Below the pieces are notes generated by a model. The model had not been told where the DNA came from, did not search any database, and saw only the letters and a list, made by a program, of their open reading frames with translations. Below are positions 1-21,975 of a stretch of DNA of 64,000 nucleotides, piece by piece. The first letter of the stretch is position 1; every line of letters begins with the position of its first letter. The DNA is from a virus, in IMG/VR virus record IMGVR_UViG_3300045988_037140, positions 11,143 to 75,142 of that record; one strand, written 5' to 3'. Position numbers and translations under genes: made by a program.

Positions 1-75
1 ATGGAATCGAAGTTGATGAATACCCGATCCCAGAAAAGAAGAAGCCAAAAAGGAAATTTGATTTCTAATAAAAAA

Positions 76-104
76 TATTGTATAATATTTATAGAAACTG
101 AGAG
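76..104 (+). promoter_or_regulatory. phage consensus promoter (TATAAT at 81-86 followed by ATTTATAGAAA box)
   Basis: First of about 20 copies of the motif TGnTATAATATTTATAGAAAGTTAAGAAAGGA seen across the window. Confidence 0.5.
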
Positions 105-280
105 AAATGGTTGCCACACACTTAACTCTTAAAAATAAGGTATGCGTGGTGAGGTTAACGGAAGGTGTTGCAAGGTCTATTAAAGACTTAACCGAGAGAG
201 AAAAACCCCTTTTGCTGAAGAGCAAAACAAATATACTGAGTCTTGAATGTTGGCAACTTGAACGAGAGACTCGTAAATAT

Positions 281-356
281 TGTCCTGTAGCTCAGCTGGC
301 AGAGCACGCGACTGTTAATCGTGGGGTCGAGGGTTCGAACCCCTCCGGGACAGCCA
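281..356 (+). tRNA. tRNA-Asn (GTT)
   Basis: Cloverleaf by hand. Acceptor tgtcctg/cgggaca; D-arm gctc-agctggca-gagc; anticodon loop ctGTTaa; T-arm gaggg-ttcgaac-ccctc; encoded CCA. Confidence 0.8.
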
Positions 357-407
357 AAGTCGATGTTTGAAGGAATCGTCGCGACTTTAACCCTAAACCT
401 TCAGTAT

Positions 408-490
408 GCGGGATTGGCGGAATGGTAGACGCGCTAGACTTAGGATCTAGTGTCTATGGCGTAAGGGTTCGAGTCCCTTATCCCGTACCA
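408..490 (+). tRNA. tRNA-Leu (TAG), type II
   Basis: Acceptor gcgggat/atcccgt; anticodon stem ctaga/tctag; loop ctTAGga; long variable arm; T-arm aaggg-ttcgagt-ccctt; CCA. Confidence 0.8.
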
Positions 491-628
491 ATGAGGCGTT
501 AACATGGATTTTGATTGGTAAACTACCACCGGCATCCAATGCGCGGCAATGCCAAGCAGCGAAGATATGTGGCTTAGTGGACAACGCCTGTCTAAATATA
601 AGAAAGCAAAGTAACCAATCGTGAATAT

Positions 629-715
629 GCGGCTATGTTGAAATCGGTAGACAAGCAAGCTTGAGGTGCTTGTGATCGAAAGGTCGTGTGAGTTCAAATC
701 TCACTAGCCGCACCA
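629..715 (+). tRNA. tRNA-Leu (GAG), type II
   Basis: Acceptor gcggcta/tagccgc; anticodon stem caagc/gcttg; loop ttGAGgt; long variable arm; T-arm gtgag-ttcaaat-ctcac; CCA. Confidence 0.75.
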
Positions 716-906
716 ATGAGTCTAATCCGCTCAAGTCATAAGGATTGGTGTCAACCGCTCACCTTACGCAGGTTGCCGATTGTGGGTGCAAGTTTGGAAA
801 CCCTCCCTGTGTCCACGGGATCTGGATAGTCTTTTGTTGTTTTATTACTTAAATAAAATTAACCGGTATAGCTTACCGTTAGAGGAGTGACTCTCCTTAA
901 GTATTT

Positions 907-983
907 GGTCTCGTAGTTCAGAAGAGTAGAACGCTAGCCTGTCACGCTAGAGGTCACGGGTTCAAGTCCCGTCGGGATCGCCA
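907..983 (+). tRNA. tRNA-Asp (GTC)
   Basis: Acceptor ggtctcg/cgggatc; D-stem gttc/gaac; anticodon stem ctagc/gctag; loop ctGTCac; T-arm acggg-ttcaagt-cccgt; CCA. Confidence 0.75.
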
Positions 984-1204
984 ATAAGAGAATATTGAAA
1001 CGGTTCAGGTCTTATCGGCCGTCTAGGCAGGCGAGGTAGAGTGAGGTAAGTTGCGGTGGAAATCCCTTGAATTAGCGTAAAAAAACCTACGCCTGAAATT
1101 CTGGAAGTGGAATTTTGCGAAGTCGGAGTAGCGTAAGCGTGTGGCTGAAATATGACCACCCGCCTAGACTTTAGTATTCTCTTTATTTGAAAAATAATAA
1201 ATAT

Positions 1205-1232
1205 TATGATATAATATTTATAGAAAGTAAGA
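1205..1232 (+). promoter_or_regulatory. phage consensus promoter (TGATATAAT + ATTTATAGAAAGTAAGAAAG)
   Basis: Motif copy; the transcript would begin at or into the AAGAC-clamped ncRNA module A. Confidence 0.5.
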
Positions 1233-1325
1233 AAGACACAGTACAGCAAGTTTTTTAATGGGATAATTCTTTTCTCGCCACGAAAATGATAACTGGTTCG
1301 AGTCCAGTGCAAAAACCTGTGTCTT
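1233..1325 (+). ncRNA. AAGAC-clamped tRNA-like ncRNA module A
   Basis: A 9-bp terminal clamp aagacacag/ctgtgtctt encloses a D-region (tacagcaa...), a hairpin ttttc-tcgccac-gaaaa, a T-arm actgg-ttcgagt-ccagt and an A/U acceptor-like pairing (tttttt/aaaaa). No CCA. It lies immediately after a promoter. Confidence 0.35.
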
Positions 1326-1334
1326 GCTGAATAT

Positions 1335-1425
1335 TGCCCCGTGGTGTAATGGTTAGCACGGCGGTCTCTAAAACCGTATCCCTCTGAAGGAGTAAGTCTG
1401 GGTTCGAACCCCAGCGGGGCTGCCA
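1335..1425 (+). tRNA. amber-suppressor tRNA (anticodon CUA, reads UAG), type II-like with Gln-like determinants
   Basis: Anticodon stem gcggt/accgt with a 7-nt loop ctCTAaa (U33, A37). T-arm ctggg-ttcgaac-cccag; acceptor tgccccg/cggggct with a U1-U72 mismatch; discriminator G73; CCA. The variable arm is 20 nt (ctct-gaa-ggag hairpin); D-arm gtgt-aatggtta-gcac. Confidence 0.7.
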
Positions 1426-1547
1426 GCAACACCTCCTGACATTTTTCGAGCGTTGTCGTTAACTAGAACTCGACCTCAGTGGTTTAATGTACGAGGTACT
1501 GGTAAGTGATGGTACTACCACTCTTCACTTTTCTCTATATATCTTAT

Positions 1548-1623
1548 GGGGCCTTAGCTCATCTGGGAGAGCGCCTGCCTTGCAAGCAGGAGGTGGCGGG
1601 TTCAAGTCCCGCAGGTTCCACCA
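1548..1623 (+). tRNA. tRNA-Ala (TGC)
   Basis: Acceptor ggggcct/aggttcc with the G3-U70 Ala identity pair; anticodon loop ctTGCaa; T-arm ggcgg-gttcaag-tcccgc; CCA. Confidence 0.85.
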
Positions 1624-1801
1624 AAGAGAAGTTTTTTTGGTTCTTCTCGGTTATATTAAATTAGTGATTATATTTGTTAAAAACCAGTTTAGGTTTGGTT
1701 TGATTACCCTTTTCTTTCCCCCTTATATAACGAAACGAAAACGGTAATGGTGCGTGACGCCGCGTTCCCTGAATAGCTTCGCAAGAAGAAGTGCGAGTTA
1801 T

Positions 1802-1878
1802 GGTCCCATCTACTAACTGGTCTAGGTAATCAGCCTCTCAAGCTGAAAATGTGAGTTCGAGTCTCGCTGGGATCACCA
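1802..1878 (+). tRNA. tRNA-Glu (CTC), atypical D-arm
   Basis: Acceptor ggtccca/tgggatc; anticodon stem tcagc/gctga; loop ctCTCaa; T-arm gtgag-ttcgagt-ctcgc; CCA. The D-arm is irregular. Confidence 0.5.
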
Positions 1879-1953
1879 CCTTACTTTTATCGCTTTTAGT
1901 AAGGAATCGAGACATTATTGCCCCAATAGACGGCTTTGTAGTCTATTTAATAT

Positions 1954-2028
1954 GCTCCCATGGACAAGTGGTTAAGTCCCCGCCCTTTCACGGCGGTGTC
2001 GTCAGTTCGATCCTGACTGGGAGTACCA
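1954..2028 (+). tRNA. tRNA-Glu (TTC)
   Basis: Acceptor gctccca/tgggagt; anticodon stem ccgcc/ggcgg; loop ctTTCac; T-arm gtcag-ttcgatc-ctgac; CCA. Confidence 0.75.
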
Positions 2029-2070
2029 TTAACAATAGGAAATATACATAGATGAAAAGGAGAAGATATT

Positions 2071-2307
2071 ATGAAGCAGGTTCACGGTACTTTCGATTCT
2101 TTTAAGACTCTGGGTGCGGCAATGGGCTTTAAGGCTCCTAAGGTCAAGGAGAAGGAGCATAAGTGCCCCAATTGCGGTGGCGTGATGGAGCGAGCTGGCG
2201 ACTCCAATGTTTTTGTTTGTCCTTTCAATAAGCTGGAAGAGCGTGACCTGAAGGGTAAGCCGGTGCAGGTGTTTAGCAAGTGCGGTAAGTTTGTTATCGC
2301 TGATTAA
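2071..2307 (+). CDS. small zinc-ribbon protein (CPNCGG...CPFN...C)
   Basis: 78-aa ORF with RBS aaaggagaag; Cys4 pattern; embedded in the tRNA array. Confidence 0.45.
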   Translation: MKQVHGTFDSFKTLGAAMGFKAPKVKEKEHKCPNCGGVMERAGDSNVFVCPFNKLEERDLKGKPVQVFSKCGKFVIAD

Positions 2308-2344
2308 CATATTGACCTGAGTAAGTCGGTAAACTGCTCTTTAT

Positions 2345-2420
2345 ATCGCGGTAGCTCAGTTGGTAGAGCGGCAGGTTGAAGCCCTGCGCGTCGCTGGTTC
2401 AAGCCCAGCCCGCGGTGCCA
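2345..2420 (+). tRNA. tRNA-Phe (GAA)
   Basis: Acceptor atcgcgg/ccgcggt; D-arm gctc-agttggtaga-gagc; anticodon loop ttGAAgc; T-arm gctgg-ttcaagc-ccagc; CCA. Confidence 0.85.
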
Positions 2421-2495
2421 TTGCGGTGGTGGAGCAACGGTAGCTCACTAGCCTCATAAGCTAGAGACGACGTTCGAATCGTCCGACCGCAACCA
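2421..2495 (+). tRNA. tRNA-Met/Ile2/fMet family (CAT), irregular acceptor
   Basis: D-arm gagc-aacggta-gctc; anticodon stem ctagc/gctag; loop ctCATaa; T-loop ttcgaat. The acceptor pairing needs one mismatch or an offset. Confidence 0.55.
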
Positions 2496-2517
2496 TAGGC
2501 ATAAAGCCATTATGGGT

Positions 2518-2634
2518 AAGACGCACACAGCAAATTTTTTCTTTTGAAAAATATTTTAGCTCATTGGTAGAGCATCAAACTGTTAATTTGACTGTAGCTG
2601 GTTCAAATCCGGCAAATAATTTTCTTTGCGTCTT
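2518..2634 (+). ncRNA. AAGAC-clamped module F enclosing an AT-rich tRNA-like (Asn GTT-like) element
   Basis: Clamp aagacgca/tgcgtctt with an acagcaaa box just after the 5' strand. It encloses the cloverleaf at 2550-2621. Confidence 0.4.
2550..2621 (+). tRNA. tRNA-like Asn (GTT) with an all-A/U acceptor stem (A2-A71 mismatch), no CCA
   Basis: D-arm gctc-attggta-gagc; anticodon stem tcaaa/tttga; loop ctGTTaa; T-arm gctgg-ttcaaat-ccggc; acceptor aatattt/aaataat. Confidence 0.45.
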
Positions 2635-2743
2635 GTAAAATTAAATAAGGAGGTTATTTTCTATGTTCCAAGACATTGATGACATGATCTTTGCTGATGT
2701 AGAACCCACGATTAGTGAGAAGTAAACATCATGTCCTTTATAT

Positions 2744-2835
2744 GTCGGGTTGGCTGAGTGGCTTAAAGCAGCAGTTTGCTAAACTGTCGACCGTGGAAAC
2801 GCGGTCCGAAGGTTCGAATCCTTCACCCGACGCCA
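2744..2835 (+). tRNA. tRNA-Ser (GCT), type II
   Basis: Acceptor gtcgggt/acccgac; anticodon loop ttGCTaa; long variable arm; T-arm cgaag-gttcgaa-tcctt; CCA. Confidence 0.8.
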
Positions 2836-3138
2836 GGGAAATGAGGAATAAACTCCGTAGAACAAAGAGTAAGTCTTTAGGATATGCTGTGCCTGCACAG
2901 AAATCTATTAGTGGTACTGATGCCTAAGTACACGGTGCGGAGGCCACCAAGAGGAAATAGCTGACGTGAAAAGCGTCTTGTCTTGCTGACATGACAATAA
3001 ACTTTGAACGGGTCGCTTAATGCGGGATTCGTGCCTGCGGGTGTAAAGTCAGAAAAGTAGGGGTATGCAGTTTGAAATCTGCAGGAGTAGCTATCGGTGA
3101 ATCCCCACCTCCACCGTCCCTTAAAATTCAAATAATAT

Positions 3139-3214
3139 GCTGGCATAGCTCAGTTGGTAGAGCTACTGATTTGTAATCAGTGGGTTGGGAGTTCGAGTCT
3201 CTCTGTCAGCTCCA
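3139..3214 (+). tRNA. tRNA-Thr (TGT)
   Basis: Acceptor gctggca/tgtcagc; anticodon stem actga/tcagt; loop ttTGTaa; T-arm gggag-ttcgagt-ctctc; CCA. Confidence 0.8.
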
Positions 3215-3345
3215 TAGGCTTAGGAAGTAGCCTACAACTTCCACAAGGCGTGAAATCGCTCTAGCGACGAAACGGATATTACCAATTGGTAGTAGCACGG
3301 TATCTAATGATGCCCTATATCGGTGCTGTGCACCGATATAGATAT

Positions 3346-3422
3346 GTCCCTTTAGCTTAGTTGGACAAAGCGTGCGGCTACGAACCGCAAGACCGGGAGT
3401 TCGAGTCTCTCAAGGGATGCCA
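3346..3422 (+). tRNA. tRNA-Arg (ACG)
   Basis: Acceptor gtccctt/aagggat; D-stem gctt/aagc; anticodon stem tgcgg/ccgca; loop ctACGaa; T-arm gggag-ttcgagt-ctctc; CCA. Confidence 0.8.
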
Positions 3423-3423
3423 T

Positions 3424-3500
3424 GTGGCTGTAGCTCAGTTGGTTAGAGCACTTGATTGTGGCTCAAGTTGTCGTGGATTCGAATTCCACCAGTCACCCCA
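3424..3500 (+). tRNA. tRNA-His (GTG), no encoded G-1
   Basis: Acceptor gtggctg/cagtcac; anticodon stem cttga/tcaag; loop ttGTGgc; discriminator C73; CCA. The nucleotide at position -1 is T, not G. Confidence 0.8.
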
Positions 3501-3566
3501 CGAGACCCAAACAGCAATTTTCAATCATATGTTTTTGGTACATACAAGATGAAAGGGGTCTAGAAA

Positions 3567-3718
3567 TGAATAAGAAGATTTACAAGCAAGCTATGAAGAA
3601 AACTGGCGATGAACTACAAGAGTGGCTTCAGTTCAAGCATCGAGGATCTTCTGTGCAAGCTAAGAAGGGAAAAGGTTCCTATTCCCGCAAACAAAAGCAT
3701 AAAGATAGGGAGTGTTGA
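3567..3718 (+). CDS. hypothetical small basic protein
   Basis: ATG with RBS gaaagggg; 50 aa; Lys-rich. Confidence 0.4.
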
Positions 3719-3720
3719 GT

Positions 3721-4035
3721 ATGTCTCGTTCTTATCGAAAACAGCCTGTTTGGAAAGATCATAATCGGGGTATGAAAGCGATGGCCAATCGAAAAGTGCG
3801 GCGGGCGCTTAACCGAGATGCTAATTTTGAGTTACCCAATTCTCTCTATAAAAGATACTTTTGTCAATATGACATTTGTGACTATTGTTTTCTTGTTTCT
3901 CGTAGCTTTGAGCAGTTTTATCAAAGTCGTATTAGAAACTGGAAAGAGCGTAGATATTATTGGTTCTGGAAAGATCAGCCATATCCTACGAGAAAAGAAG
4001 TTTACAAGGATTGGCTTAATTATCGTGGTAAATAA
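3721..4035 (+). CDS. hypothetical protein
   Basis: ATG after RBS ggag; 104 aa; no recognisable motif. Confidence 0.4.
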   Translation: MSRSYRKQPVWKDHNRGMKAMANRKVRRALNRDANFELPNSLYKRYFCQYDICDYCFLVSRSFEQFYQSRIRNWKERRYYWFWKDQPYPTRKEVYKDWLNYRGK

Positions 4036-4112
4036 GCGGCTATCGCCTAATGGATATGGCAACAGCCTTCTAAGCTGTCACAATCTGAGTTCGAATCTCA
4101 GTAGCCGTACCA
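4036..4112 (+). tRNA. tRNA-Arg (TCT)
   Basis: Acceptor gcggcta/tagccgt; anticodon stem acagc/gctgt; loop ctTCTaa; T-arm ctgag-ttcgaat-ctcag; CCA. Confidence 0.8.
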
Positions 4113-4116
4113 ATAT

Positions 4117-4462
4117 GGGGGTATAAAGGTTTCGACGGGGCATTGAGAAGTTAGAACACACGGGTAGGCGACCTCCTTACGGCGCAACAAACAATTAACT
4201 GACAACAATTATTTTGATTCTCACATGGCAGCTTGAGCTTTTGCTCGCTGACCATTAACTGTATACCTCTGGTTTCTTTGTTTTCCTTCTAAAAATAAAG
4301 TGGTGGATGCGTTGTACTTATAACCGGTACGGCCCTATAGTTTAGTTAGTTTGTTCTTGACTTGTGGCTCTATTCAAAAGCTATAAATAAGGACTATCGT
4401 GTAAGAATGTTCTGATTAAGTAGATGTTTCGGACACGGGTTCGACTCCCGTTACCTCCACCA
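4117..4462 (+). ncRNA. ssrA: tmRNA (SsrA), phage-encoded
   Basis: 5' end gggggtataaaggtttcgacgggg and 3' end tttcggacacgggttcgactcccgttacctccacca match the canonical tmRNA ends (GGGG...GGUUUCGACGGGG ... UUCGGACGCGGGUUCAACUCCCG...CUCCACCA). The acceptor gggggta/tacctcc pairs. Candidate tag ORF: ...DNNYFDSHMAA followed by TGA. Confidence 0.75.
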
Positions 4463-4467
4463 AACTT

Positions 4468-4544
4468 GTCCGCTTAGCTCAGCTGGCTAGAGCAACCGAC
4501 TCTTAATCGGTGGGTCCAGAGTTCGAATCTCTGAGTGGGCACCA
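4468..4544 (+). tRNA. tRNA-Lys (CTT)
   Basis: Acceptor gtccgct/agtgggc; anticodon stem accga/tcggt; loop ctCTTaa; T-arm cagag-ttcgaat-ctctg; CCA. Confidence 0.8.
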
Positions 4545-4548
4545 ATAT

Positions 4549-4638
4549 GCGGGGATGGCCGAGTGGTTGATGGCGCCAGTCTAGAAAACTGGAGGCCCAG
4601 CAATGGGTCCGGGAGTTCGAATCTCTCTCCCCGCGCCA
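4549..4638 (+). tRNA. tRNA-Ser with anticodon AGA (A34), type II
   Basis: Ser-like D-arm gcc-gagtggttgat-ggc; anticodon stem ccagt/actgg; loop ctAGAaa; long variable arm; T-arm gggag-ttcgaat-ctctc; acceptor gcgggga/tccccgc; G73; CCA. Confidence 0.6.
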
Positions 4639-4642
4639 GTAT

Positions 4643-4719
4643 AGTTTGGTAGCTCAGTTGGTTAGAGCACTCGATTGATAATCGAGAGGTCGTGAGTTCA
4701 AGTCTCACCCAGACTACCA
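4643..4719 (+). tRNA. tRNA-Ile (GAT)
   Basis: Acceptor agtttgg/ccagact; anticodon stem ctcga/tcgag; loop ttGATaa; T-arm gtgag-ttcaagt-ctcac; CCA. Confidence 0.8.
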
Positions 4720-4781
4720 TTTGGAGATATTTCTTTAATTTAATTATCTTTTTCTTTATAAGTATTGAGGAAGGTGATAAA

Positions 4782-5642
4782 ATGAAGATTTATAATCCAA
4801 TTAACTATTCCTATATCACTGTTGTAGAAATTCCAAAGACAGAGATTTCAAAGTTCGATATGGCGCTATGTCAACAGCCTCGTTAGACTTTGAAAGCCTA
4901 CTATGATAGTTGCGCTGTTAAGCCTTCTATCGTTTCCAATGGTGGTTTCTTCAGCATGACTGATGGTTCAACAGCCTTTAACTATACCGATGAAGGTATA
5001 ATCATTAGTTCTAATTCTCTTTACAAAGAAGGATTTGGAACTGTCAATGGAGAGTTAAAGTACGGTGTAATTGGTCAAGAGAAGTTTGAGGACTTCGTAA
5101 GTGGCTATCCAGTCTTAATTAAGGCGGGCGCCGCAGTTCCTATTACTATTGCTTCCGAGATTAACTACAAGGCTAGAAGAACTATTCTAGCTTATAATAA
5201 AGAAAATATCTTTATTGTAGCTATTGAATCTCCGGGCATGAACTTCTCACAAATGCAATCTTTCTTGCGGACTCTCAAGGTTGACTACGCTATTAACCTT
5301 GATGGAGGCGGAAGTACCAAGATATTGCATGATGGCAAGTGTATCACAAAGGCGCTTGCTAATCGTCCTGTTGATAATATAATGGCTGTTTATCTAAAGC
5401 CAAAAGTTATTTACAGAGTATAGCTTGGTGCATTTAGCAAGAAAGCTAATGCAGATGCATTTTTAGCTAAAATCAAGGCTCTTCCTGATACTATCAATGC
5501 AGGATATAAGAATGCTTATGTTCGCAAGGTTGGTAGTTATTGGAAGGTTCAAATTGGTGCGTTCTCTGTGAAAGCTAACGCAACACGAGTTGTAAATGAT
5601 CTAAAGAGTAAGGGCTATAATGCCTTCATTACGACAACTTGA
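4782..5642 (+). CDS. phosphodiester-glycosidase-like (NAGPA/DUF2233-type, ...INLDGGGS...) protein with a C-terminal SPOR domain; two in-frame TAG codons
   Basis: ATG at 4782 with RBS gaggaaggtga. In-frame TAGs at 4884 and 5421 join the ORF-track pieces 4692-4886 and 4890-5423 to a C-terminal extension ending at TGA 5640-5642. The extension contains two SPOR-type repeats, RV*LGAFS and KVQIGAFS. Confidence 0.55.
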
Positions 5643-5657
5643 TTTTCTAAAAATATT

Positions 5658-5685
5658 TTGTTATAATATTTATAGAAGATAAGAG
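5658..5685 (+). promoter_or_regulatory. phage consensus promoter
   Basis: tgttataat + atttatagaagataagag motif immediately upstream of ncRNA module B. Confidence 0.5.
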
Positions 5686-5791
5686 AAGACGCTTGCCGCA
5701 ACCACTACTATTGTAATAGTCAAAAGGTTAAGACATTTCTCTACAAAAGAAACAATTTGGGTTCGATTCCCAATTACACAAAAGGCGTCTT
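5686..5791 (+). ncRNA. AAGAC-clamped tRNA-like ncRNA module B
   Basis: Clamp aagacgc/gcgtctt. Interior: hairpin tttct-ctacaaa-agaaa (anticodon-arm-like), T-arm ttggg-ttcgatt-cccaa, and a 5-bp A/U acceptor-like pairing tgtaa/ttaca. No CCA. Confidence 0.35.
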
Positions 5792-5833
5792 GTTATGGTC
5801 AGCCCGTAAGACCTTAAATGGCGGGACACCTAT

Positions 5834-5909
5834 CCGGGTGTAGCGCAGTTGGTAGCGCGCCTGATTTGGGTTCAGGAGGCCCAGAGTTCGAATCTCTGCA
5901 CTCGGACCA
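5834..5909 (+). tRNA. tRNA-Pro (TGG)
   Basis: Acceptor ccgggtg/cactcgg; D-arm gcgc-agttggta-gcgc; anticodon loop ttTGGgt; T-arm cagag-ttcgaat-ctctg; CCA. Confidence 0.85.
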
Positions 5910-5947
5910 ATCCCCATTTGGTGGGGACTATGTATCACTCCTTTCCT

Positions 5948-6100
5948 ATGTTATATAAAGACCTATACAGCAAATCTTTCTTTACTAATAGAAGAAGATA
6001 TAATGATTAGCAAGTCATTGCTGCCAGACGTCGAGATAGCTCTTTAGAACGAAGACAGGCGAGAGCTATGGAGTCATAAGTCTAAGTTTTCGTGGGTCTT
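5948..6100 (+). ncRNA. AAGAC-clamped ncRNA module E (no obvious T-arm)
   Basis: 5' aagacctatacagcaaa shares the acagcaa box with modules A, D and F. The 3' end gggtctt pairs with the 5' end. The interior has stems but no TPsiC-like loop. Confidence 0.25.
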
Positions 6101-6103
6101 GAA

Positions 6104-6150
6104 ATGTTATAATATTTTTGTTATAATATTTATAGAAAGTTAAGAAAGGA
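6104..6150 (+). promoter_or_regulatory. tandem phage consensus promoters (two TGTTATAAT boxes) + leader/RBS
   Basis: tgttataat(6106), tgttataat(6118), atttatagaaagttaagaaaggaag, then ATG at 6161. Confidence 0.5.
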
Positions 6151-6160
6151 AGTAAATGGT

Positions 6161-6346
6161 ATGAAGAAAATTGATATGGGTTGCTACTACTTTTCCGACA
6201 AGGGTTTGGTTCGTACAGTTGCCAGAGCAACAGATATGGAGACGAAGAAGTCGATGATTATGTTCGTTAACATTGAATCTGGCGGGTGTGCAAGTCAGCC
6301 TCTTTTAATTTCTGAGGAGAAGTTTGCGGCGACTTACATCAGGTAA
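6161..6346 (+). CDS. hypothetical protein
   Basis: 61-aa ORF directly behind the promoter and leader. Confidence 0.4.
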   Translation: MKKIDMGCYYFSDKGLVRTVARATDMETKKSMIMFVNIESGGCASQPLLISEEKFAATYIR

Positions 6347-6353
6347 GTCGTAT

Positions 6354-6430
6354 GCGGGATTAGCTCAGCAGGTTAGAGCATTTGCCTTACAAGCAAGGGG
6401 TCACAGGTTCGAGTCCTGTATCCCGTACCA
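6354..6430 (+). tRNA. tRNA-Val (TAC)
   Basis: Acceptor gcgggat/atcccgt; anticodon stem tttgc/gcaag; loop ctTACaa; T-arm acagg-ttcgagt-cctgt; CCA. Confidence 0.85.
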
Positions 6431-6702
6431 GCGTTGGGAGCGCTACAGTGGTCACACACAAAAACTGCCTTAGAACAAATAAACAAAAGCTAAGGTGAGG
6501 AATTTAACCGCCTAAATGAAGGGTTATGATTTAGAATAAGACGCTAGCCAGCAATTTTATTTTCTATAAAGAAAGTTTATACAGAGGATTGTGAAGAATC
6601 ATCTATGATCGCCGTTTGGCTAGTTCTCCTGGGGTAAGAGAGAGTTAATTGACAGAAGAGCGAATGTAAATTGATTAAAACTCTTTAGCGTCTTGATTAT
6701 TT

Positions 6703-6778
6703 AGCGGTGTTGCGAAGTGGTTAACGCGCATGGCTTTGACCCATGTATTCGAAGGTTCGAACCCTTCCACCGCTGCCA
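6703..6778 (+). tRNA. tRNA-Gln (TTG)
   Basis: Acceptor agcggtg/caccgct (A1-U72, G73); anticodon stem catgg/ccatg; loop ctTTGac; T-arm gaagg-ttcgaac-ccttc; CCA. Confidence 0.8.
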
Positions 6779-14901: not shown

Positions 14902-14958
14902 AGAATTTAATCTCCCTTGTCCAAGGGAGTAACTAAAAATCAAAAGGAGATTGATACG

Positions 14959-16449
14959 ATGAATACTTTTATGAACGCTATGAAGCAAGATACCAACTTT
15001 ACCTTGACTGAGAATGGCGCAGTTACCCATAAGTCCACTCTGAATGGTCTTATGGATTTGTTCGCGCTCGGCGGAGCATACCGCACTCGTTCTGATGCAG
15101 ATTGTATCACTTTGTTCAAGGCGGCCTTTGACGAGGATGAAGCTCATGCTTTAAAGTGCCTGTTCTATCTGCGTGATGTGCGCGGCGGCCAGGGTGAGCG
15201 TCGTTTCTTCCGCGTTGTGACCAACTGGCTTGCTTCTCACGAGACTGAAGCCATGCGTCGTAATCTCCAGTTTGTGCCTGAGTACGGTCGCTGGGACGAC
15301 CTGTATATCTTCGTTGGCACTCCTCTGGAGAAGGACGCTTTCAATTTGATGCGCCATCAGCTGGCTTTGGATGTCTCTTGCAAGACTCCTTCTCTGCTCG
15401 CTAAGTGGCTGAAGTCTGAGAATACCAGCTCTAAGGAATCTCGCCATCTGGCGGTGATTACTCGCAATCATTTTGGCATGACCGCAAAACAGTACCGCAA
15501 GACTCTCTCTACTCTGCGTGAGCGTATCCGCATCGTTGAGCGCCTCATGTCTGAGAATCGGTGGGACGAGATTGAGTTTGACAAGATTCCTTCTCGTGCC
15601 GGCGTAATTTATCGCAATGCGTTTGCTCGCCGCGATATGATTAAGGCTAAGTATGAGGCTTTCGCTAAGGATACTGAGACTAAGGTTAATGCCAGTGCTC
15701 TCTATCCTCACGACATTGCACATCGTGCCTTTGAAGCCAATCGTAAGGGATTGGGCGATCCTGATCGTCTGATGCTTCAGAAGTATTGGGAGAACCTTCC
15801 TAACTACTACGGTGATAATATCGAGAATGGCATTGCTGTTGTCGATGTTTCTGGCTCTATGACCGGTGTTCCTATGGAGGCTGCGGTCTCTATGGGTGCG
15901 TATATCGCAGATAAGGCGCACGGTCCTTTTGCCAACCACTTCATTACCTTCTCTGGTCATCCTGAGCTGGTGAAGTTCGAGGGGGCAGACATTACCGATA
16001 AGTTGTGCCGTTGCATTGGTGCAGATTGGGGTATGAACACTAATATCGAAGCTGTCTTCGATATGCTGCTCAACACCGCGATGAAGCAAAGTGTAAAGCC
16101 TGAGGATATGCCTACTCGCGTCTACATCTTCTCTGATATGGAGTTTGACAAGTGTGTTACCAGTAACTCTACTGATCGGGGTGGCTGGGGGTATGGTATG
16201 CACAGCGATGCCATCCAGACTCTCTTTGAGGCTATGAAGGCTAAGTGGGCACGCTACGGTTACAAGATGCCTAGCTGCATCTTCTGGAACCTGAACGCCC
16301 GCAATAACAACATTCCCGCAATCGGTGACGGCTTTAGCTATGTAAGTGGTTTTAGCCCTGTTATGATTCAGCAGATTCTCAGCGGCAAGGACGGACTCGA
16401 TCTGATTCTTGAGAAGCTGGACAGCGAGCGTTATGCTCAGATTCACTAA
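14959..16449 (+). CDS. vWA-domain protein with Ro60/TROVE-like architecture (helical N-terminal part + C-terminal vWA MIDAS DVSGSM)
   Basis: ATG 14959 after aaaaggaga. MIDAS motif IAVVDVSGSMTG, later FSGHP and FSDMEFD. The N-terminal ~300 aa look helical. The following genes are an AAA+ MoxR ATPase and an unknown protein. Confidence 0.5.
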   Translation: MNTFMNAMKQDTNFTLTENGAVTHKSTLNGLMDLFALGGAYRTRSDADCITLFKAAFDEDEAHALKCLFYLRDVRGGQGERRFFRVVTNWLASHETEAMRRNLQFVPEYGRWDDLYIFVGTPLEKDAFNLMRHQLALDVSCKTPSLLAKWLKSENTSSKESRHLAVITRNHFGMTAKQYRKTLSTLRERIRIVERLMSENRWDEIEFDKIPSRAGVIYRNAFARRDMIKAKYEAFAKDTETKVNASALYPHDIAHRAFEANRKGLGDPDRLMLQKYWENLPNYYGDNIENGIAVVDVSGSMTGVPMEAAVSMGAYIADKAHGPFANHFITFSGHPELVKFEGADITDKLCRCIGADWGMNTNIEAVFDMLLNTAMKQSVKPEDMPTRVYIFSDMEFDKCVTSNSTDRGGWGYGMHSDAIQTLFEAMKAKWARYGYKMPSCIFWNLNARNNNIPAIGDGFSYVSGFSPVMIQQILSGKDGLDLILEKLDSERYAQIH

Positions 16450-16454
16450 ACCCT

Positions 16455-16500
16455 CTCAAACGGGGAAATGGCAAGAAAATTGCCATTTCCCCGTCTTTTC
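16455..16500 (+). terminator. rho-independent terminator
   Basis: ggggaaatggcaa-gaaaa-ttgccatttcccc followed by gtcttttc. Confidence 0.5.
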
Positions 16501-16521
16501 TATTTATTGAAAAATAATTTA

Positions 16522-16560
16522 ATTTATGATATAATAAATATATAAGGTAAGGAAAGGAAG
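16522..16560 (+). promoter_or_regulatory. phage consensus promoter + leader
   Basis: tttatgatataataaatatataaggtaaggaaaggaag. Confidence 0.45.
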
Positions 16561-16568
16561 TTACATAG

Positions 16569-17465
16569 ATGCTATATCCATATCCAGCTGGAATGCCATT
16601 CCCAAGTTTGTTTACGTCTTCATTTGAACCGCCAGCGCAATCTGCTTCTGATTATTCTCTATATCGAGAAGATTTTGGTAGCATTTACAGTTTACTGAAT
16701 ACTATCAATAACCGTGAAAACAATAGCTTCATGCGTAACGAAGATTCGTCTCAGGAACGTGGAAATGAAGAGTGGAGTGGTACATCTTCTTATGAAGAAG
16801 CTCAATCTCTCTTGATTCATGGCTATGAAGATCCGGTTAAAAATATCAAGAGCAGCTTAGCTAAAAATAAGAAACTGACAAGTAAAATCTACAATTCAAT
16901 TCCTAAGCCCATAGTCCAAAATAGAGTGGTAGGATTTGTTCCAAATGTACCCAATGCTCTTAAAGGACTGCCGGAATCTATGATTACACTGGAAAAACTC
17001 CATAAGAAGAGAAAGACCATCTCTATTATCTATGCTACAGGCGGTAGCTGTGGCGTAGAAAGTGATGTTCTGGCATCTGCGGGTGCGGCGCTTGTATCCG
17101 CCATCAACCTCATTGAGTTGTCCGGTGTGCAAACTGAATTGTCGGTTGGTTTTATGCCTACGAAAGAAACTAAGCAGATTATTTTTCCAACTGTGAAGAT
17201 TAAAGGCTATGGCGAACGCTTTAACTTGCAGAAAATCTGCTTTCCGATGATTCATCCTGCGATGTTTAGACGAATTGGTTTTAAGTACCTTGAAACTTGT
17301 CCTGGTATGGTAGAAAATTTTTCTCATGGGTATGGCCGTCCGCCTGAGCTTGAAGTTTTGAAGACTCTTATCAAGGATAAAAATACCTATGTGATTAACC
17401 GTGCGTGGATTACTGAACATGAAAATGATATTGAAGAAATTCTTAAATATATGGAGGTCTGCTGA
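16569..17465 (+). CDS. hypothetical protein (partner of the vWA / MoxR pair)
   Basis: 298 aa; no motif recognised; lies between the vWA and MoxR genes in the same transcription unit. Confidence 0.4.
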   Translation: MLYPYPAGMPFPSLFTSSFEPPAQSASDYSLYREDFGSIYSLLNTINNRENNSFMRNEDSSQERGNEEWSGTSSYEEAQSLLIHGYEDPVKNIKSSLAKNKKLTSKIYNSIPKPIVQNRVVGFVPNVPNALKGLPESMITLEKLHKKRKTISIIYATGGSCGVESDVLASAGAALVSAINLIELSGVQTELSVGFMPTKETKQIIFPTVKIKGYGERFNLQKICFPMIHPAMFRRIGFKYLETCPGMVENFSHGYGRPPELEVLKTLIKDKNTYVINRAWITEHENDIEEILKYMEVC

Positions 17466-17466
17466 T

Positions 17467-18426
17467 ATGAATAGAGATAAGATGCTCGAAGCGATGATGA
17501 AGGCGGTGACTGATGCGGTCGTCGACGTGAATGTGGAAGAAATTCTGGCGAAAGTGTATCCTCAGATTGATGAGAAAATTCACGAGACTTATGGTTTCCT
17601 GCCGGAGGTTCATGAAGTGCGGACGCCGACTGCAACCCATAAGATCTGTGGCACTACGCATGAGAAGTTTGACGAGGTTCTCAATATTGTCAATCTGGAT
17701 ATCCCCGTTTATCTGACTGGCAAAGCGGGCACCGGCAAGAACGTCATTTGTCAGCAGGTTGCGGAAGCTCTGGGTCTGGATTTTTACTTCACCAACGCCG
17801 TTACGCAGGAGTACAAGCTGACTGGCTTCATTGATGCCAACGGTAATTATCAGGAAACCCAGTTTTATAAAGCTTTTACGAAGGGTGGTCTGTTCTTCTT
17901 GGACGAGATGGACGCATCTATCCCTGAGACTCTGATTATTTTGAACGCGGCCATCGCGAATAGATACTTCGATTTCCCCAACGGCAAAGTTAGTGCGAAC
18001 CCTAACTTTAGAGTCATCGCTGCTGGTAATACGGTTGGTACCGGTGCAGATAATAACTACACTGGTCGCTATTGCTTGGATAGAGCAAGTCTTGACCGTT
18101 TTGCTATGGTGAATATCGACTACTCTGAAAAGATTGAGATGGCTATGGCAGATAATAACAAGAATCTGGTATCTTTCTGCCATCGTTTCAGAGAGATTAC
18201 CGATAAGGCTGGCATCGAGTGTCTGTTCTCCTATCGTACTATTGATAGAATTGCGAAACTCGAAACGGTAATCAGCAATCTGTCCGAGGTTCTGTCTATC
18301 TCGCTGCTTAAGGGCATGGACGAGGATACCTTGTCTATTCTTAAGAACGAATTGTCTGAAGCTAAGGATATGACAAATAACAAGTATGCGAAAGCTATTA
18401 TCAATGGTAATAGCTGGGATTTTTAA
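17467..18426 (+). CDS. MoxR-like AAA+ ATPase (AAA_5: GKAGTGKN, FLDEMDA)
   Basis: ATG 17467 after ggaggt. Walker A LTGKAGTGKNVI, Walker B LFFLDEMD, sensor AAGNTVG. Confidence 0.65.
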   Translation: MNRDKMLEAMMKAVTDAVVDVNVEEILAKVYPQIDEKIHETYGFLPEVHEVRTPTATHKICGTTHEKFDEVLNIVNLDIPVYLTGKAGTGKNVICQQVAEALGLDFYFTNAVTQEYKLTGFIDANGNYQETQFYKAFTKGGLFFLDEMDASIPETLIILNAAIANRYFDFPNGKVSANPNFRVIAAGNTVGTGADNNYTGRYCLDRASLDRFAMVNIDYSEKIEMAMADNNKNLVSFCHRFREITDKAGIECLFSYRTIDRIAKLETVISNLSEVLSISLLKGMDEDTLSILKNELSEAKDMTNNKYAKAIINGNSWDF

Positions 18427-18438
18427 GGAGGTAAACCA

Positions 18439-18645
18439 ATGATGATGGAAGGTTGGCTTTGCCCTCGGTGTCATAAAGTAAATGCGCCTTGGGTGTCACA
18501 ATGTTCCTGTGAAGATTTTTGGCGTGACAAGATTACTTGCAATCCATGTACTACAGGAGCGTATCCGAGAGACAACTGGTCTGTTACTACAGCTACTAAC
18601 GCTGATGTGAACAGCGATTCTACGAAAGCTGTACCCTCGGTATAA
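18439..18645 (+). CDS. small zinc-ribbon protein (CPRCH...CSC...CNPC)
   Basis: RBS aaggaggtaaacca; 68 aa. Confidence 0.45.
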   Translation: MMMEGWLCPRCHKVNAPWVSQCSCEDFWRDKITCNPCTTGAYPRDNWSVTTATNADVNSDSTKAVPSV

Positions 18646-18649
18646 GAAT

Positions 18650-18690
18650 AAGGGGAGCTATCTATATAGCTCCCCTTTATTTTTTTGAAA
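18650..18690 (+). terminator. rho-independent terminator
   Basis: aaggggagctat-ctat-atagctcccctt followed by tatttttttt. Confidence 0.55.
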
Positions 18691-18691
18691 A

Positions 18692-18730
18692 ATTATAATA
18701 TAATATATATAGAAAGTTAAGAAAGAGGGT
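18692..18730 (+). promoter_or_regulatory. phage consensus promoter + leader
   Basis: aattataatataatatatatagaaagttaagaaagaggg. Confidence 0.45.
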
Positions 18731-18739
18731 TTGTGATAA

Positions 18740-19318: not shown

Positions 19319-19333
19319 GAAAGAAGGTATACG

Positions 19334-19645
19334 ATGAAACTGTGGATTGATGATCTGCGGCCGGCTCCGAGCGAATATATCTGGGTTAAAAGTGTAAAAG
19401 CCGCTAAAACTGCGATCTGGCAGTATGAACATAACATGATAGATGATAATATCTTGATTGACCTTGACCATGATGCTGGTGACTATGCGTCTGAAGGTGG
19501 GGACTATATTAAGTTACTCGATTGGCTAGAAGCTAAAAACATTGTAGACACAGGATATAGCTTTCATCTCCATAGTATGAATCCTGTCGGCGTTCAGAAT
19601 ATGAGAGCAATCATTGAGAAGAATGGATGGGAGGAAATTAGATAA
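19334..19645 (+). CDS. hypothetical protein
   Basis: 103 aa; RBS gaaggta. Confidence 0.4.
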   Translation: MKLWIDDLRPAPSEYIWVKSVKAAKTAIWQYEHNMIDDNILIDLDHDAGDYASEGGDYIKLLDWLEAKNIVDTGYSFHLHSMNPVGVQNMRAIIEKNGWEEIR

Positions 19646-20052: not shown

Positions 20053-20054
20053 TA

Positions 20055-21934: not shown

Positions 21935-21942
21935 AAAAATAA

Positions 21943-21975
21943 AGGGTCGAAGTATTTAATACTTCGACCCTTTTA
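21943..21975. terminator. bidirectional terminator
   Basis: aaagggtcgaagtat-ttaa-atacttcgaccctttt; lies between convergent + and - genes. Confidence 0.6.

What the first reader, a model, noticed from the sequence alone, without database searches (positions are those of the whole stretch)
4117..4462. Phage-encoded tmRNA inside the tRNA island
Both ends match the canonical tmRNA tRNA-like domain (GGGG...GGUUUCGACGGGG ... GGUUCGACUCCCG...CUCCACCA), with the acceptor gggggta/tacctcc. A short internal ORF ending ...DSHMAA-TGA has the expected Ala-Ala C-terminus, but the resume codon is not identified. tmRNA genes are rare in phage genomes. A phage copy could maintain trans-translation when host ssrA is targeted, or interact with UAG recoding (ribosomes stalled at rare UAG).
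Basis: partly seen in the sequence, partly recalled or inferred. Interest (0 to 1): 0.55.

Follow-up and report, generated by a model that had tools for sequence, protein, structure and literature searches.

The report
Phage tmRNA gene in tRNA island
This is a genuine, intact ribosome-rescue RNA (tmRNA) carried by an uncultivated gut phage that reads the stop codon TAG as glutamine; phage tmRNAs are already known, so it is a solid but fairly ordinary find, and its main new value is that standard software misses many of its relatives.

Summary
Window 4117..4462 (+) is a full-length one-piece tmRNA gene. ARAGORN and Rfam RF00023 (100.1 bits against a cut-off of 47, E 6e-38) call exactly these coordinates.

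The gene lies 4 nt after tRNA-Arg and 5 nt before tRNA-Lys in a 33-gene tRNA island. The genome is phage-like, with about 140-150 kb relatives in IMG/VR, and it reads TAG as Gln.

Homologues occupy the same site in 13 of 15 close relatives, and the lineage also occurs in more distant phages. Eight acceptor-stem variants all keep G3:U70. In the ten-sequence alignment, 30 of 67 pairs show compensatory double changes (2-10 in slid controls), and in the close clade the tag stays 11 codons ending in Ala-Ala. The gene is therefore under selection as a working tmRNA.

No SmpB gene turned up among the window ORFs scanned, so host SmpB, AlaRS and EF-Tu are presumed.

Phage tmRNAs are already documented, so this is a new member of a known kind. 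Three points are new. ARAGORN misses about half of this lineage. The published TAG-recoded phage phAss-1 carries an unannotated copy. A functional link to TAG recoding is plausible but untested.

The parts
4117..4462 (+). Complete one-piece tmRNA gene (346 nt), CCA encoded
   Evidence: ARAGORN. Rfam RF00023 at 100.1 bits, full model.
4117..4123 (+). Acceptor stem, 5' strand GGGGGUA (G3 of the G3:U70 alanine identity pair)
   Evidence: Pairs with 4452..4458. G3:U70 is invariant and positions 4-7 covary across relatives.
4124..4135 (+). D-loop analogue of the tRNA-like domain (UAAAGGUUUCGA)
   Evidence: GGUUUCGAC is nearly invariant in the alignments and aligns to the Rfam consensus GGaUUCGAC.
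4136..4162 (+). Long connector helix P2, 5' strand
   Evidence: Pairs with 4398..4431. All 23 pairs are 100% paired in 10 sequences, and 15 of them show compensatory double changes (helices 2-4).
4163..4188 (+). PK1 region: hairpin GGUAGG/CCUCC plus conserved UUACGGCGCAAC; the second pseudoknot stem is not resolved
   Evidence: By eye, the third pair of the hairpin varies U-A / C-G / U-G among relatives, and is U-U or shifted in the window (alignments). RNAalifold pairs only 3 bp here.
4195..4200 (+). [quoted passage not shown]
   Evidence: Conserved as AAUUAACU or AAUUAAAC in relatives. It aligns to the Rfam consensus UAAuU. Positions -6 to +1 set the frame in E. coli (PMC3985003).
4201..4236 (+). 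Tag reading frame: resume codon GAC, 11 codons DNNYFDSHMAA, stop UGA at 4234..4236
   Evidence: ARAGORN and the Rfam alignment. In 15 further sequences of the close clade and L123 the tag is also 11 codons, D-[NE]-x-Y-F-x-x-x-[MLI]-A-A.
4229..4250 (+). Helix 5, which holds the tag stop codon
   Evidence: 8 pairs, 98.6% paired, one with a compensatory change that is also a synonymous GCA to GCG change.
4276..4307 (+). U-rich hairpin CUUUGUUU/AAAUAAAG followed by the invariant G-rich strand UGGUGGA (pseudoknot-like element)
   Evidence: Helix 7 has 3 compensatory pairs. AGUGGUGGA is almost fully invariant across the 14 sequences (only its first two bases vary, in one sequence), and UGGUGGA is invariant. 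The Rfam PK2 segment upstream is largely deleted.
4398..4431 (+). Connector helix P2, 3' strand
   Evidence: Partner of 4136..4162.
4435..4451 (+). T-arm ACGGG-UUCGACU-CCCGU
   Evidence: 100% paired, 2 compensatory pairs (helix 10).
4452..4462 (+). Acceptor stem 3' strand UACCUCC, discriminator A, and CCA
4036..4112 (+). tRNA-Arg(UCU), ending 4 nt before the tmRNA (same transcript inferred)
   Evidence: The same neighbour precedes the tmRNA in all window-like relatives; in the more distant relatives a tRNA-Phe lies between tRNA-Arg and the tmRNA.
4468..4544 (+). tRNA-Lys(CUU), starting 5 nt after the tmRNA
1335..1425 (+). Context: amber-suppressor tRNA(CUA), Gln-like, in the same island
   Evidence: TAG sites align with Gln in relatives.

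Best explanation
This is a functional phage-encoded tmRNA (ssrA).

Inferred steps. It is transcribed with the surrounding tRNAs as one precursor. The tRNA-processing enzymes of the host then cut it out. Its CCA end is already encoded. Host AlaRS charges it with alanine through the G3:U70 pair. It enters stalled ribosomes with host SmpB and EF-Tu. Translation resumes at GAC (4201) and adds (A)DNNYFDSHMAA. It terminates at UGA. This frees the ribosome and marks the truncated protein with a C-terminal x-Ala-Ala degron.

Most likely benefit to the phage (inferred). Infection multiplies broken or stop-less mRNAs, and a phage copy adds ribosome-rescue capacity at that time. Three sources are likely: host mRNA decay, RNA-level defence and counter-defence, and read-through of TAG-terminated genes caused by the phage's own amber-suppressor tRNA.

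What is shown: the gene's identity, its intactness, its position, and purifying selection on both its structure and its tag frame. What is inferred: expression, charging, use of the host SmpB, and the benefit.
For: Identity: ARAGORN and Rfam agree on 4117..4462.

Selection on structure: a 10-sequence alignment of phage homologues gives 95.7% of cells paired, against 40-47% when partners are slid. 30 of 67 pairs carry double changes, against 2-10 when slid, and 0 of 500 shuffles reach the observed values. There are eight acceptor-stem variants (GGGGGUA, GGGGAUG, GGGGCCG, GGGGCUG, GGGGCAG, GGGCCUG, GGGCUUG, GGGCCCG). Each is matched by its 3' strand and each keeps G3:U70.

Selection on coding: in all 16 sequences of the close clade plus L123 the tag is 11 codons with no frameshift or early stop. 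It keeps D-[NE]-x-Y-F-x-x-x-[MLI]-A-A while synonymous and conservative changes accumulate.

Conserved synteny: a tmRNA lies at the same island position in 13 of 15 close relatives that cover the site.

Processing context: there are 4-nt and 5-nt spacers to the flanking tRNAs, and the only terminator-like match between them lies inside the tmRNA itself (4311..4333).

Demand for rescue: TAG is read as Gln. NrdD is split only by one TAG, with an ATP-cone before it and the NRDD domain after it. Relatives have Q at four TAG sites. Suppressor tRNAs are known to create stop-less complexes handled by SsrA (Ueda et al. 2002, cited in PMC3985003). The window also carries an RNA-repair style gene set: Ro-like, RNA ligase, Thg1-like, RlaP-like.
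Against: There are no expression, charging or tagging data. No SmpB gene was found among the window ORFs scanned, so function depends on compatibility with an unidentified host's SmpB. The window is less than half the genome, and the family list showed only 25 of 35 families. PK1 is not clearly a pseudoknot, and the PK2 segment of the Rfam model is largely missing, although in E. coli three of the four pseudoknots are dispensable in vitro (PMC3985003). One recoded subclade (L091, L097) lacks the gene at the syntenic site, so it is not indispensable. The minimum-free-energy z-score alone is unremarkable at -1.65.
Confidence: 0.8

Rival explanations
1. The tmRNA is specifically a companion of TAG-to-Gln recoding. 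Once the phage suppressor tRNA is expressed, host and early phage genes that end in TAG are read through to the mRNA end. In addition, ribosomes may pause at TAG while suppressor and RF1 compete. The phage tmRNA clears these ribosomes and marks the extended proteins for degradation, which makes the code switch affordable.
For: The window reads TAG as Gln and carries tRNA(CUA) 2.7 kb from the tmRNA in the same island. The published TAG-recoded phage phAss-1 also carries a tmRNA of the same lineage, unannotated. The non-recoded relative Enterococcus phage EF1, with 142 kb and 15 tRNAs, has none. Suppressor tRNAs raise the need for SsrA in E. coli (PMC3985003 citing Ueda 2002). Unassigned UAG codons are resolved partly by ssrA rescue (abstract of PMC6207430). 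No tag in the lineage contains or ends with TAG.
Against: The sample is tiny and phylogenetically non-independent: two recoded groups against one control. L097 carries tRNA(CUA) but no tmRNA within 10 kb. Many distant relatives with tRNA(CUA) show no tmRNA within 10 kb either. tmRNAs also occur in phages not known to be recoded, such as phage G and huge phages, and tmRNA 3'-end matches occur in Xanthomonas and Stenotrophomonas phages. The uniform UGA tag stop is not an adaptation to recoding: phAss-1 uses UAA, the nearest non-family relatives also use UGA, and 13% of a background set do too.
Confidence: 0.2
2. The phage copy replaces host tmRNA that is destroyed or blocked during infection, either by a host RNA-targeting defence or by the phage's own host shut-off. 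It would play the same role that phage tRNAs play in replacing cleaved host tRNAs.
For: The gene sits among 33 phage tRNA genes and next to an RNA-repair style gene set: Ro-like, RNA ligase, Thg1-like, RlaP-like and several phosphoesterases. This suggests heavy RNA damage during infection. Two tRNA-like-domain subtypes circulate among otherwise near-identical phages. L086 and L089 are 96-98% identical to the window in the marker protein, yet they carry the acceptor and T-arm of the L092/L095 type. Such variation is what escape from a sequence-specific nuclease might produce.
Against: I did not find, and do not know of, any defence system that cleaves tmRNA. The subtype mosaic can equally be neutral recombination with co-transfer of the two pairing strands. 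Nothing in the window identifies a tmRNA-directed nuclease.
Confidence: 0.12
3. The phage tmRNA re-programmes tagging rather than adding capacity. It outcompetes host tmRNA and attaches a different tag, which changes the fate of tagged proteins (a different protease, or slower or faster degradation) to the phage's advantage.
For: The tag (DNNYFDSHMAA) differs from the one clearly bacterial relative recovered (Clostridiales Firm_05, DEDNIYGELKAA). It is half the length of the tags of sister phage lineages, which run to about 21-24 aa. The middle of the tag evolves while the ends stay fixed.
Against: The C-terminal [MLI]-A-A is kept throughout, which is the canonical degron end. The true host and its tag are unknown, so 'different from host' is untested.
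Confidence: 0.08
4. It is not a working phage gene. It would then be one of three things: a remnant of an integration site (phages often integrate into ssrA and carry its 3' end), a recently captured host gene that is decaying, or bacterial DNA mis-assembled or mis-binned with the phage.
For: Many tmRNA 3' ends occur on IMG/VR contigs. Of 86 full tmRNAs found that way, only 2 lie in tRNA clusters, so most are probably host genes flanking prophages. One family member (L259) sits in a bin labelled Oscillospiraceae.
Against: The gene is full length, not a 3' fragment. It lies between phage tRNAs at the same site in many independently assembled contigs of 75-148 kb. Its structure and tag frame are maintained by compensatory change. 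No close bacterial copy was found. L259 is a 148,971-bp contig with the same phage tRNA island.
Confidence: 0.03

Closest known systems
Bacterial one-piece tmRNA (SsrA, Rfam RF00023), especially those of Clostridia / Eubacteriales
   Same: It has the tRNA-like domain with G3:U70, discriminator A and CCA. It has the long P2 connector, a tag frame preceded by U(-5)A(-4), a stop codon in helix 5 and a tag ending in Ala-Ala. It shares the motifs GGUGGUGGAG and CUAUCGUGUAAG, and an Asp resume codon, with a Clostridiales genome and an Eubacteriales MAG fragment.
   Different: It is carried by a phage inside a tRNA array rather than standing alone on a chromosome (where, from my own knowledge, ssrA often lies next to smpB). 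It is shorter (346 nt) because the PK2 segment is largely deleted. PK1 looks like a simple hairpin. No smpB gene lies nearby.
tmRNA genes reported in huge phages and in phage G (Al-Shayeb et al. 2020, PMC7162821; PMC12484599)
   Same: These are phage-borne tmRNAs accompanying large tRNA sets and other translation genes. They are presumed to rescue stalled ribosomes during infection.
   Different: This family is about 140-150 kb by relative contig length, below the 200 kb 'huge' threshold. It uses TAG as Gln. The earlier reports relied on ARAGORN, which misses about half of this lineage. The huge-phage paper also reports SmpB in huge phages, whereas none was seen in this window.
Phage phAss-1 / proposed genus Phassvirus (OQ749652, PMC10607447)
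   Same: It is a human-gut, roughly 136 kb, TAG-to-Gln recoded phage with 36 tRNAs and suppressor tRNAs. It is distantly related to Enterococcus phage EF1, and a Clostridia host is predicted. It carries a tmRNA of the same lineage at record 92139..92577 on the minus strand (Rfam 77.9 bits; nhmmer 67 and 35 bits against my family profile).
   Different: The phAss-1 tmRNA is 439 nt with a 24-residue tag (DNSNVIVMVHPALISAMMEVRQAA) and a UAA stop. It lies outside the main tRNA island, is not annotated in GenBank, and is not mentioned in the paper. There is no nucleotide-level similarity detectable by blastn.
Other uncultivated gut phage contigs L191, L212 and L164 (IMG/VR, 71-117 kb)
   Same: Among the sequences examined, they are the nearest tmRNA relatives outside the family. 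They also lie between tRNA genes, also have an Asp resume codon and a UGA stop, and are also missed by ARAGORN.
   Different: They are 404-428 nt with an extra structured segment after helix 5 and tags of about 21-24 residues. The window's gene looks like a streamlined derivative.

Membership tests
tmRNA (Rfam RF00023, one-piece) | Covariance-model score above the curated gathering threshold over the full model | tested here: met
   100.1 bits against 47, E 6.3e-38, model positions 1-374, not truncated.
tmRNA (Rfam RF00023, one-piece) | tRNA-like domain: 7-bp acceptor stem joining the 5' and 3' ends, G3:U70 alanine identity pair, discriminator A, CCA end, T-arm with a GUUCGANUC-type loop | tested here: met
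   GGGGGUA/UACCUCC with G3:U70, ACCA, and ACGGG-UUCGACU-CCCGU. G3:U70 is invariant in 23 lineage members.
tmRNA (Rfam RF00023, one-piece) | Internal tag reading frame with no start codon, a resume codon preceded by the conserved U(-5)A(-4) context, a stop codon in helix 5, and a tag ending in hydrophobic-Ala-Ala | tested here: met
   UUAACU|GAC..., DNNYFDSHMAA, and UGA within helix 5. The frame is conserved in relatives.
tmRNA (Rfam RF00023, one-piece) | Pseudoknot PK1 immediately upstream of the tag frame | tested here: inconclusive
   A conserved hairpin GGNAGG/CCNCC with a covarying pair is present. A second stem of only 2-4 bp can be drawn, and not consistently.
tmRNA (Rfam RF00023, one-piece) | Pseudoknots PK2-PK4 downstream of helix 5 | tested here: inconclusive
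   The PK2 segment of the model aligns mostly to gaps. Three conserved hairpins follow, two of them with compensatory changes (helices 7-9). The pseudoknot partners are not resolved.
tmRNA (Rfam RF00023, one-piece) | Structure maintained by compensatory evolution among homologues | tested here: met
   30 of 67 pairs with double changes against 2-10 in slid controls, and 0 of 500 shuffles reach the observed value.
tmRNA (Rfam RF00023, one-piece) | Works with SmpB; charged by AlaRS; adds the tag to stalled nascent chains | not testable with these tools
   No SmpB Pfam hit among the window ORFs scanned. The rest of the genome and the host are unknown. This needs biochemistry or proteomics.
Phage-encoded tmRNA (as reported for huge phages, phage G and others) | The gene lies within a bona fide phage genome rather than in flanking host DNA or an attachment-site fragment | tested here: met
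   It is full length and sits between phage tRNAs on the same strand as a phage replication module. The same arrangement occurs on many IMG/VR contigs of 75-148 kb. The genome reads TAG in frame as Gln, a property of phages in standard-code hosts. Structural genes were not examined because they lie outside the window.
Two-piece (permuted) tmRNA (RF04321 and related) | Circularly permuted gene order, with the acceptor piece upstream of the coding piece | tested here: not met
   There is only a sub-threshold match (38.3 bits against 47) at 4054..4236, which overlaps tRNA-Arg and the 5' part of the gene. The one-piece model fits end to end.

The most novel reading that the evidence does not exclude
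Phage tmRNA is an enabling accessory of stop-codon recoding. In gut phages that switch TAG from stop to Gln, a streamlined phage tmRNA is co-expressed from the same tRNA array as the suppressor tRNA. It rescues the ribosomes that the suppressor drives off the ends of TAG-terminated host and early phage messages, and it marks those extended proteins for destruction. If so, tmRNA carriage should be enriched in code-15 phages. That enrichment would have been hidden until now because ARAGORN fails on many of these genes. Examples are the window's sister subtype with a GUGCGAC T-loop and the unannotated copy in phAss-1.
Probability: 0.2. Interest if true: 0.6.

Novelty: new member of a known kind. 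Interest (0 to 1): 0.33.

Why it matters
On its own this adds one more phage to the list of those carrying tmRNA, and it confirms that the gene is under selection rather than a relic. Three by-products matter more.

1. Detection. In this lineage ARAGORN, the tool used in the published surveys, misses roughly half of the genes, including one in a published GenBank genome. Counts of phage tmRNAs are therefore underestimates and should be redone with covariance models.

2. A testable link to recoding. The gene sits in the same array as the amber suppressor of a TAG-to-Gln phage. The tag sequence is known, so gut metaproteomes can be searched directly for ...ADNNYFDSHMAA. This would show both that the RNA works and which proteins it tags.

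3. A natural experiment. The family shows eight acceptor-stem variants, all with G3:U70, and a swapped tRNA-like-domain module between near-identical phages. This is a natural experiment on what a tmRNA must keep.

Tried and rejected
1. ARAGORN alone as a presence/absence test. It suggested a patchy gene missing from very close relatives. Rfam and an nhmmer profile then found it in L086, L089, L092, L093, L095, L098, L109 and L112, so I withdrew the 'patchy' reading.

2. blastn of the tmRNA against 50,697 GenBank phage records found no match. The phAss-1 copy retrieves only itself plus tRNA-like-domain 3' ends of unrelated phage tmRNAs. blastn is too insensitive for this RNA.

3. The UGA tag stop as an adaptation to TAG recoding or RF2 dependence is rejected. 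It is a lineage trait shared with relatives outside the family. phAss-1 uses UAA, and 11 of 86 background tmRNAs use UGA.

4. Resolving PK1 and PK2-4 by a covariation scan of all column pairs and by eye gave only nested helices with good support. I do not claim pseudoknot partners.

5. The tag-pattern scan hits L134 and L136 have no tmRNA by ARAGORN, Rfam or the nhmmer profile. L134 is a coding-sequence chance match, a protein with ...LTDNNYFDV...; L136 was not inspected further. About three chance hits are expected for 18 specified bases.

6. The promoter and terminator scan of 1..10000 was not clearly above its shuffled controls (24 promoter-like sites against 17.7 +/- 3.9; 13 terminator-like sites against 7.6 +/- 3.2). 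It gave no usable transcript boundaries apart from a good terminator at 9844..9869.

7. The single-sequence MFE z-score (-1.65) is not informative by itself.

8. The genome-contig scan for a bacterial donor returned only distant Clostridia relatives and one mis-binned phage contig. The host and donor remain unidentified, and only one motif-limited scan was possible.

9. A search for SmpB or release-factor genes among the window ORFs found nothing. The family list was cut at 25 of 35 families, and more than half of the genome lies outside the window.

Full report
**1. The observation**

ARAGORN calls a tmRNA at exactly these coordinates, with tag DNNYFDSHMAA* encoded at positions 85..120 of the gene. 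Rfam RF00023 matches the same coordinates over the whole model (1-374) at 100.1 bits. The gathering score is 47 and E is 6.3e-38. A second run with laxer filters reproduces this. No protein-coding ORF longer than 36 aa lies within the gene.

**2. Anatomy, in window coordinates**

- Acceptor stem: 4117..4123 pairs with 4452..4458 (GGGGGUA/UACCUCC). It includes G3:U70, the alanine identity pair. Discriminator A and an encoded CCA follow at 4459..4462.
- D-loop analogue: 4124..4135.
- Connector helix P2: 4136..4162 pairs with 4398..4431.
- PK1 region: 4163..4188. It contains the hairpin GGUAGG/CCUCC and a conserved UUACGGCGCAAC.
- Resume codon: GAC at 4201, preceded by UUAACU, so U is at -5 and A at -4. 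This is the context that sets the frame in E. coli (positions -6 to +1; PMC3985003). The Rfam alignment places this GAC under the consensus GCa.
- Tag: eleven codons give DNNYFDSHMAA. The UGA stop at 4234..4236 lies in helix 5 (4229..4250).
- Downstream of helix 5: the PK2 segment of the Rfam model aligns mostly to gaps. A U-rich hairpin (4276..4300), an invariant G-rich strand UGGUGGA (4301..4307) and further hairpins follow.
- T-arm: 4435..4451.

I could not assign pseudoknot partners with confidence.

**3. Context**

The gene lies 4 nt after tRNA-Arg(UCU) and 5 nt before tRNA-Lys(CUU). It sits in an island of 32 tRNA genes plus one tmRNA, all on the + strand. A further tRNA-like gene appears with laxer filters.

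The rest of the window is a one-strand phage replication and nucleotide-metabolism module. It encodes the PolIII alpha subunit, GyrA and GyrB, DnaB, NrdD, PhoH, RNA ligase, thymidylate synthase, DHFR, DNA ligase and lysins.

The closest cultured relatives by DnaE are Enterococcus and SPbeta-type phages, at only 40% identity. By contrast, IMG/VR holds dozens of close relatives on contigs of up to 148 kb.

TAG is a sense codon here. NrdD is one frame interrupted by a single TAG, with an ATP-cone domain before it and the NRDD domain after it. Several other genes contain 1-12 in-frame TAGs. At four TAG sites the nearest TAG-free relatives have Gln. A Gln-like tRNA(CUA) lies at 1335..1425.

This matches the TAG-to-Gln gut phages described as phAss-1 / Phassvirus, which are also related to Enterococcus phage EF1 and are predicted to infect Clostridia (PMC10607447). 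An SLH domain in a lysin and a family member binned with an Oscillospiraceae MAG point the same way, but only weakly.

**4. Is it a working gene?**

I used a marker protein 4 kb downstream (8531..9667) to fetch 51 related loci.

- ARAGORN found the tmRNA in only some of them.
- Rfam and an nhmmer profile then found it in relatives that ARAGORN had scored as empty.
- Of the 15 close relatives that cover the syntenic site, 13 have it. The exception is the L091/L097 subclade, where in L097 the flanking tRNAs are only 77 nt apart.
- More distant members are L109, L112, L119, L120 and L123.

On a 10-sequence alignment the RNAalifold structure has 67 pairs. Of all cells, 95.7% are paired, against 40-47% when partners are slid by 1-3 columns. 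Thirty pairs show changes on both sides, against 2-10 when slid. None of 500 shuffles reaches the observed values.

Across 23 lineage members there are eight different acceptor stems. Each is complementary to its 3' strand and each keeps G3:U70.

In the close clade and L123 the tag frame is always 11 codons, D-[NE]-x-Y-F-x-x-x-[MLI]-A-A, with synonymous and conservative changes. One GCA to GCG change is matched by its partner in helix 5. Both the RNA structure and the coding frame are therefore under purifying selection.

A second subtype has acceptor GGGGAUG/CAUCUCC and a six-pair T-stem with a GUGCGAC loop. It occurs in L086 and L089, whose marker protein is 96-98% identical to the window's, and also in the much more distant L092 and L095. 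This implies that the tRNA-like-domain module is exchanged between phages. It is also the subtype ARAGORN cannot see.

**5. Origin**

- blastn finds nothing similar among 50,697 GenBank phage records.
- One motif-limited scan of GTDB genomes gave three relevant hits: a mis-binned family member (L259), a Clostridiales tmRNA (L260; tag DEDNIYGELKAA, UAA stop, no neighbouring tRNAs), and an Eubacteriales MAG fragment.
- Among the sequences examined, the nearest relatives outside the family are tmRNAs on other IMG/VR phage contigs (L191, L212, L164). They also sit between tRNAs and are also missed by ARAGORN. They are 404-428 nt with tags of about 21-24 residues.
- phAss-1 itself has an unannotated 439-nt tmRNA of the same lineage at record 92139..92577 on the minus strand (Rfam 77.9 bits). 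Its 24-residue tag ends in UAA. The paper does not mention it.

The window's gene looks like a shortened derivative of a Clostridia-type tmRNA that has long circulated among gut phages.

**6. Mechanism**

Shown: gene identity, intactness, conserved position and selection.

Inferred:
- co-transcription with the tRNAs and processing by the tRNA machinery;
- charging by host AlaRS;
- delivery by host SmpB and EF-Tu, since no SmpB gene was found among the window ORFs scanned;
- tagging with (A)DNNYFDSHMAA and release at UGA.

The most economical benefit is extra ribosome-rescue capacity when stop-less messages are abundant. Two features of this genome predict such abundance. One is the amber suppressor: suppressor tRNAs are known to generate SsrA substrates (PMC3985003 citing Ueda et al. 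2002). The other is an RNA-repair style gene set next to the island.

A specific link to recoding is attractive. phAss-1 has a tmRNA, and the non-recoded relative EF1 has none. But this rests on three genomes and is contradicted by L097, so I give it about 0.2.

The uniform UGA tag stop is a lineage trait, not an adaptation.

**7. Comparison with what is known, and verdict**

Phage tmRNAs are documented in huge phages (PMC7162821) and in phage G (PMC12484599). tmRNA 3' ends also turn up in several cultured Xanthomonas, Stenotrophomonas and Bordetella phages.

This is therefore a new member of a known kind. Its statement that such genes are rare is partly a detection artefact. Its functional ideas remain open.

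Interest is modest at 0.33. It is raised slightly by the detection failure of the standard tool, by the unannotated copy in a published recoded phage, and by the directly testable tag sequence.

Noticed in passing
window 1335..1425: The amber-suppressor tRNA(CUA) has Gln-like acceptor features (U1, G73) but is 91 nt long, with an extra arm of about 20 nt. Sister clades carry a normal 75-76 nt tRNA(CUA), and L107 carries both sizes side by side. TAG sites align with Gln in relatives.
   Followed up: partly
window 8450..8523: This tRNA has an 8-nt anticodon loop, GUUAAAAG (ARAGORN: 4-base anticodon 'taaa'; Rfam tRNA 42.5 bits). It is conserved at the same position in many relatives, with 'taga' in L090. 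It could be a quadruplet decoder, or an odd Leu or ochre-reading tRNA.
   Followed up: no
window 7017..7137: A tRNA-like gene (acceptor, D- and T-arms intact) carries an insertion of about 54 nt where the anticodon loop should be. ARAGORN misses it, and Rfam finds it only with lax filters (46.5 bits). Homologues of 116-120 nt occur in L092, L093, L095 and L259.
   Followed up: partly
window 14917..28791: An RNA-repair style gene set lies next to the tRNA island. Members are a Ro/TROVE-like protein (14917..16449), DUF7192 (16569..17462), an AAA ATPase (17401..18423), an RlaP-like nucleotidyltransferase (20344..21144), three calcineurin-like phosphoesterases, an RNA ligase (23551..24819) and a Thg1-like enzyme (27823..28791). 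This suggests the phage repairs tRNA damage during infection.
   Followed up: partly
window 43764..44714; also 34969..36390, 52294..54045, 60861..63101: TAG is used in frame very unevenly. There are 12 TAGs in one 316-codon ORF (my reading of its C-terminal sequence suggests a GIY-YIG-like endonuclease; not checked against Pfam), 4 in a lysin, 3 in a DHH/RecJ-like protein (one directly after the DHH motif) and 1 in NrdD. Most replication genes have none.
   Followed up: partly
L095 8185..8780; L109 14061..14650: ROOL RNA (RF03087; 350 and 277 bits) sits inside the tRNA islands of two related phages. The window has none, even with the permissive Rfam scan.
   Followed up: no
window 4301..4307 against 4456..4462: The invariant internal motif UGGUGGA is the exact complement of the tmRNA's own 3' end, UCCACCA. 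It extends to 8 nt in some relatives and is also present in the Clostridiales and Eubacteriales relatives. It may simply be the G-rich strand of a pseudoknot. Pairing with the CCA end is untested.
   Followed up: partly
L265 42139..42577 (OQ749652.1 record 92139..92577, minus strand): The published phage phAss-1 has an unannotated 439-nt tmRNA (Rfam 77.9 bits) with tag DNSNVIVMVHPALISAMMEVRQAA and a UAA stop. It lies in a gap between annotated CDSs and is missed by ARAGORN.
   Followed up: yes
L086 4725..5065, L089 5476..5816, L092 5240..5570, L095 5308..5638: A tmRNA subtype with a six-pair T-stem and a GUGCGAC T-loop (G where the near-universal second U of the T-loop stands). It still scores 71-76 bits with Rfam. 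It is shared by phages that are otherwise near-identical to the window and by phages that are distant from it, which implies module exchange.
   Followed up: partly
window 5709..5782: tRNA-Cys with anticodon ACA (A at the wobble position). The Rfam match is partial (model 3-68). It is conserved in close relatives alongside a normal tRNA-Cys(GCA) at 14679..14765.
   Followed up: no
L259 (CALWOP010000177.1, 148,971 bp): A contig deposited as part of an 'uncultured Oscillospiraceae bacterium' MAG is a member of this phage family, with the same tRNA island and a tmRNA with tag DNAYFENHLAA. This is either mis-binning or a weak hint about the host.
   Followed up: partly
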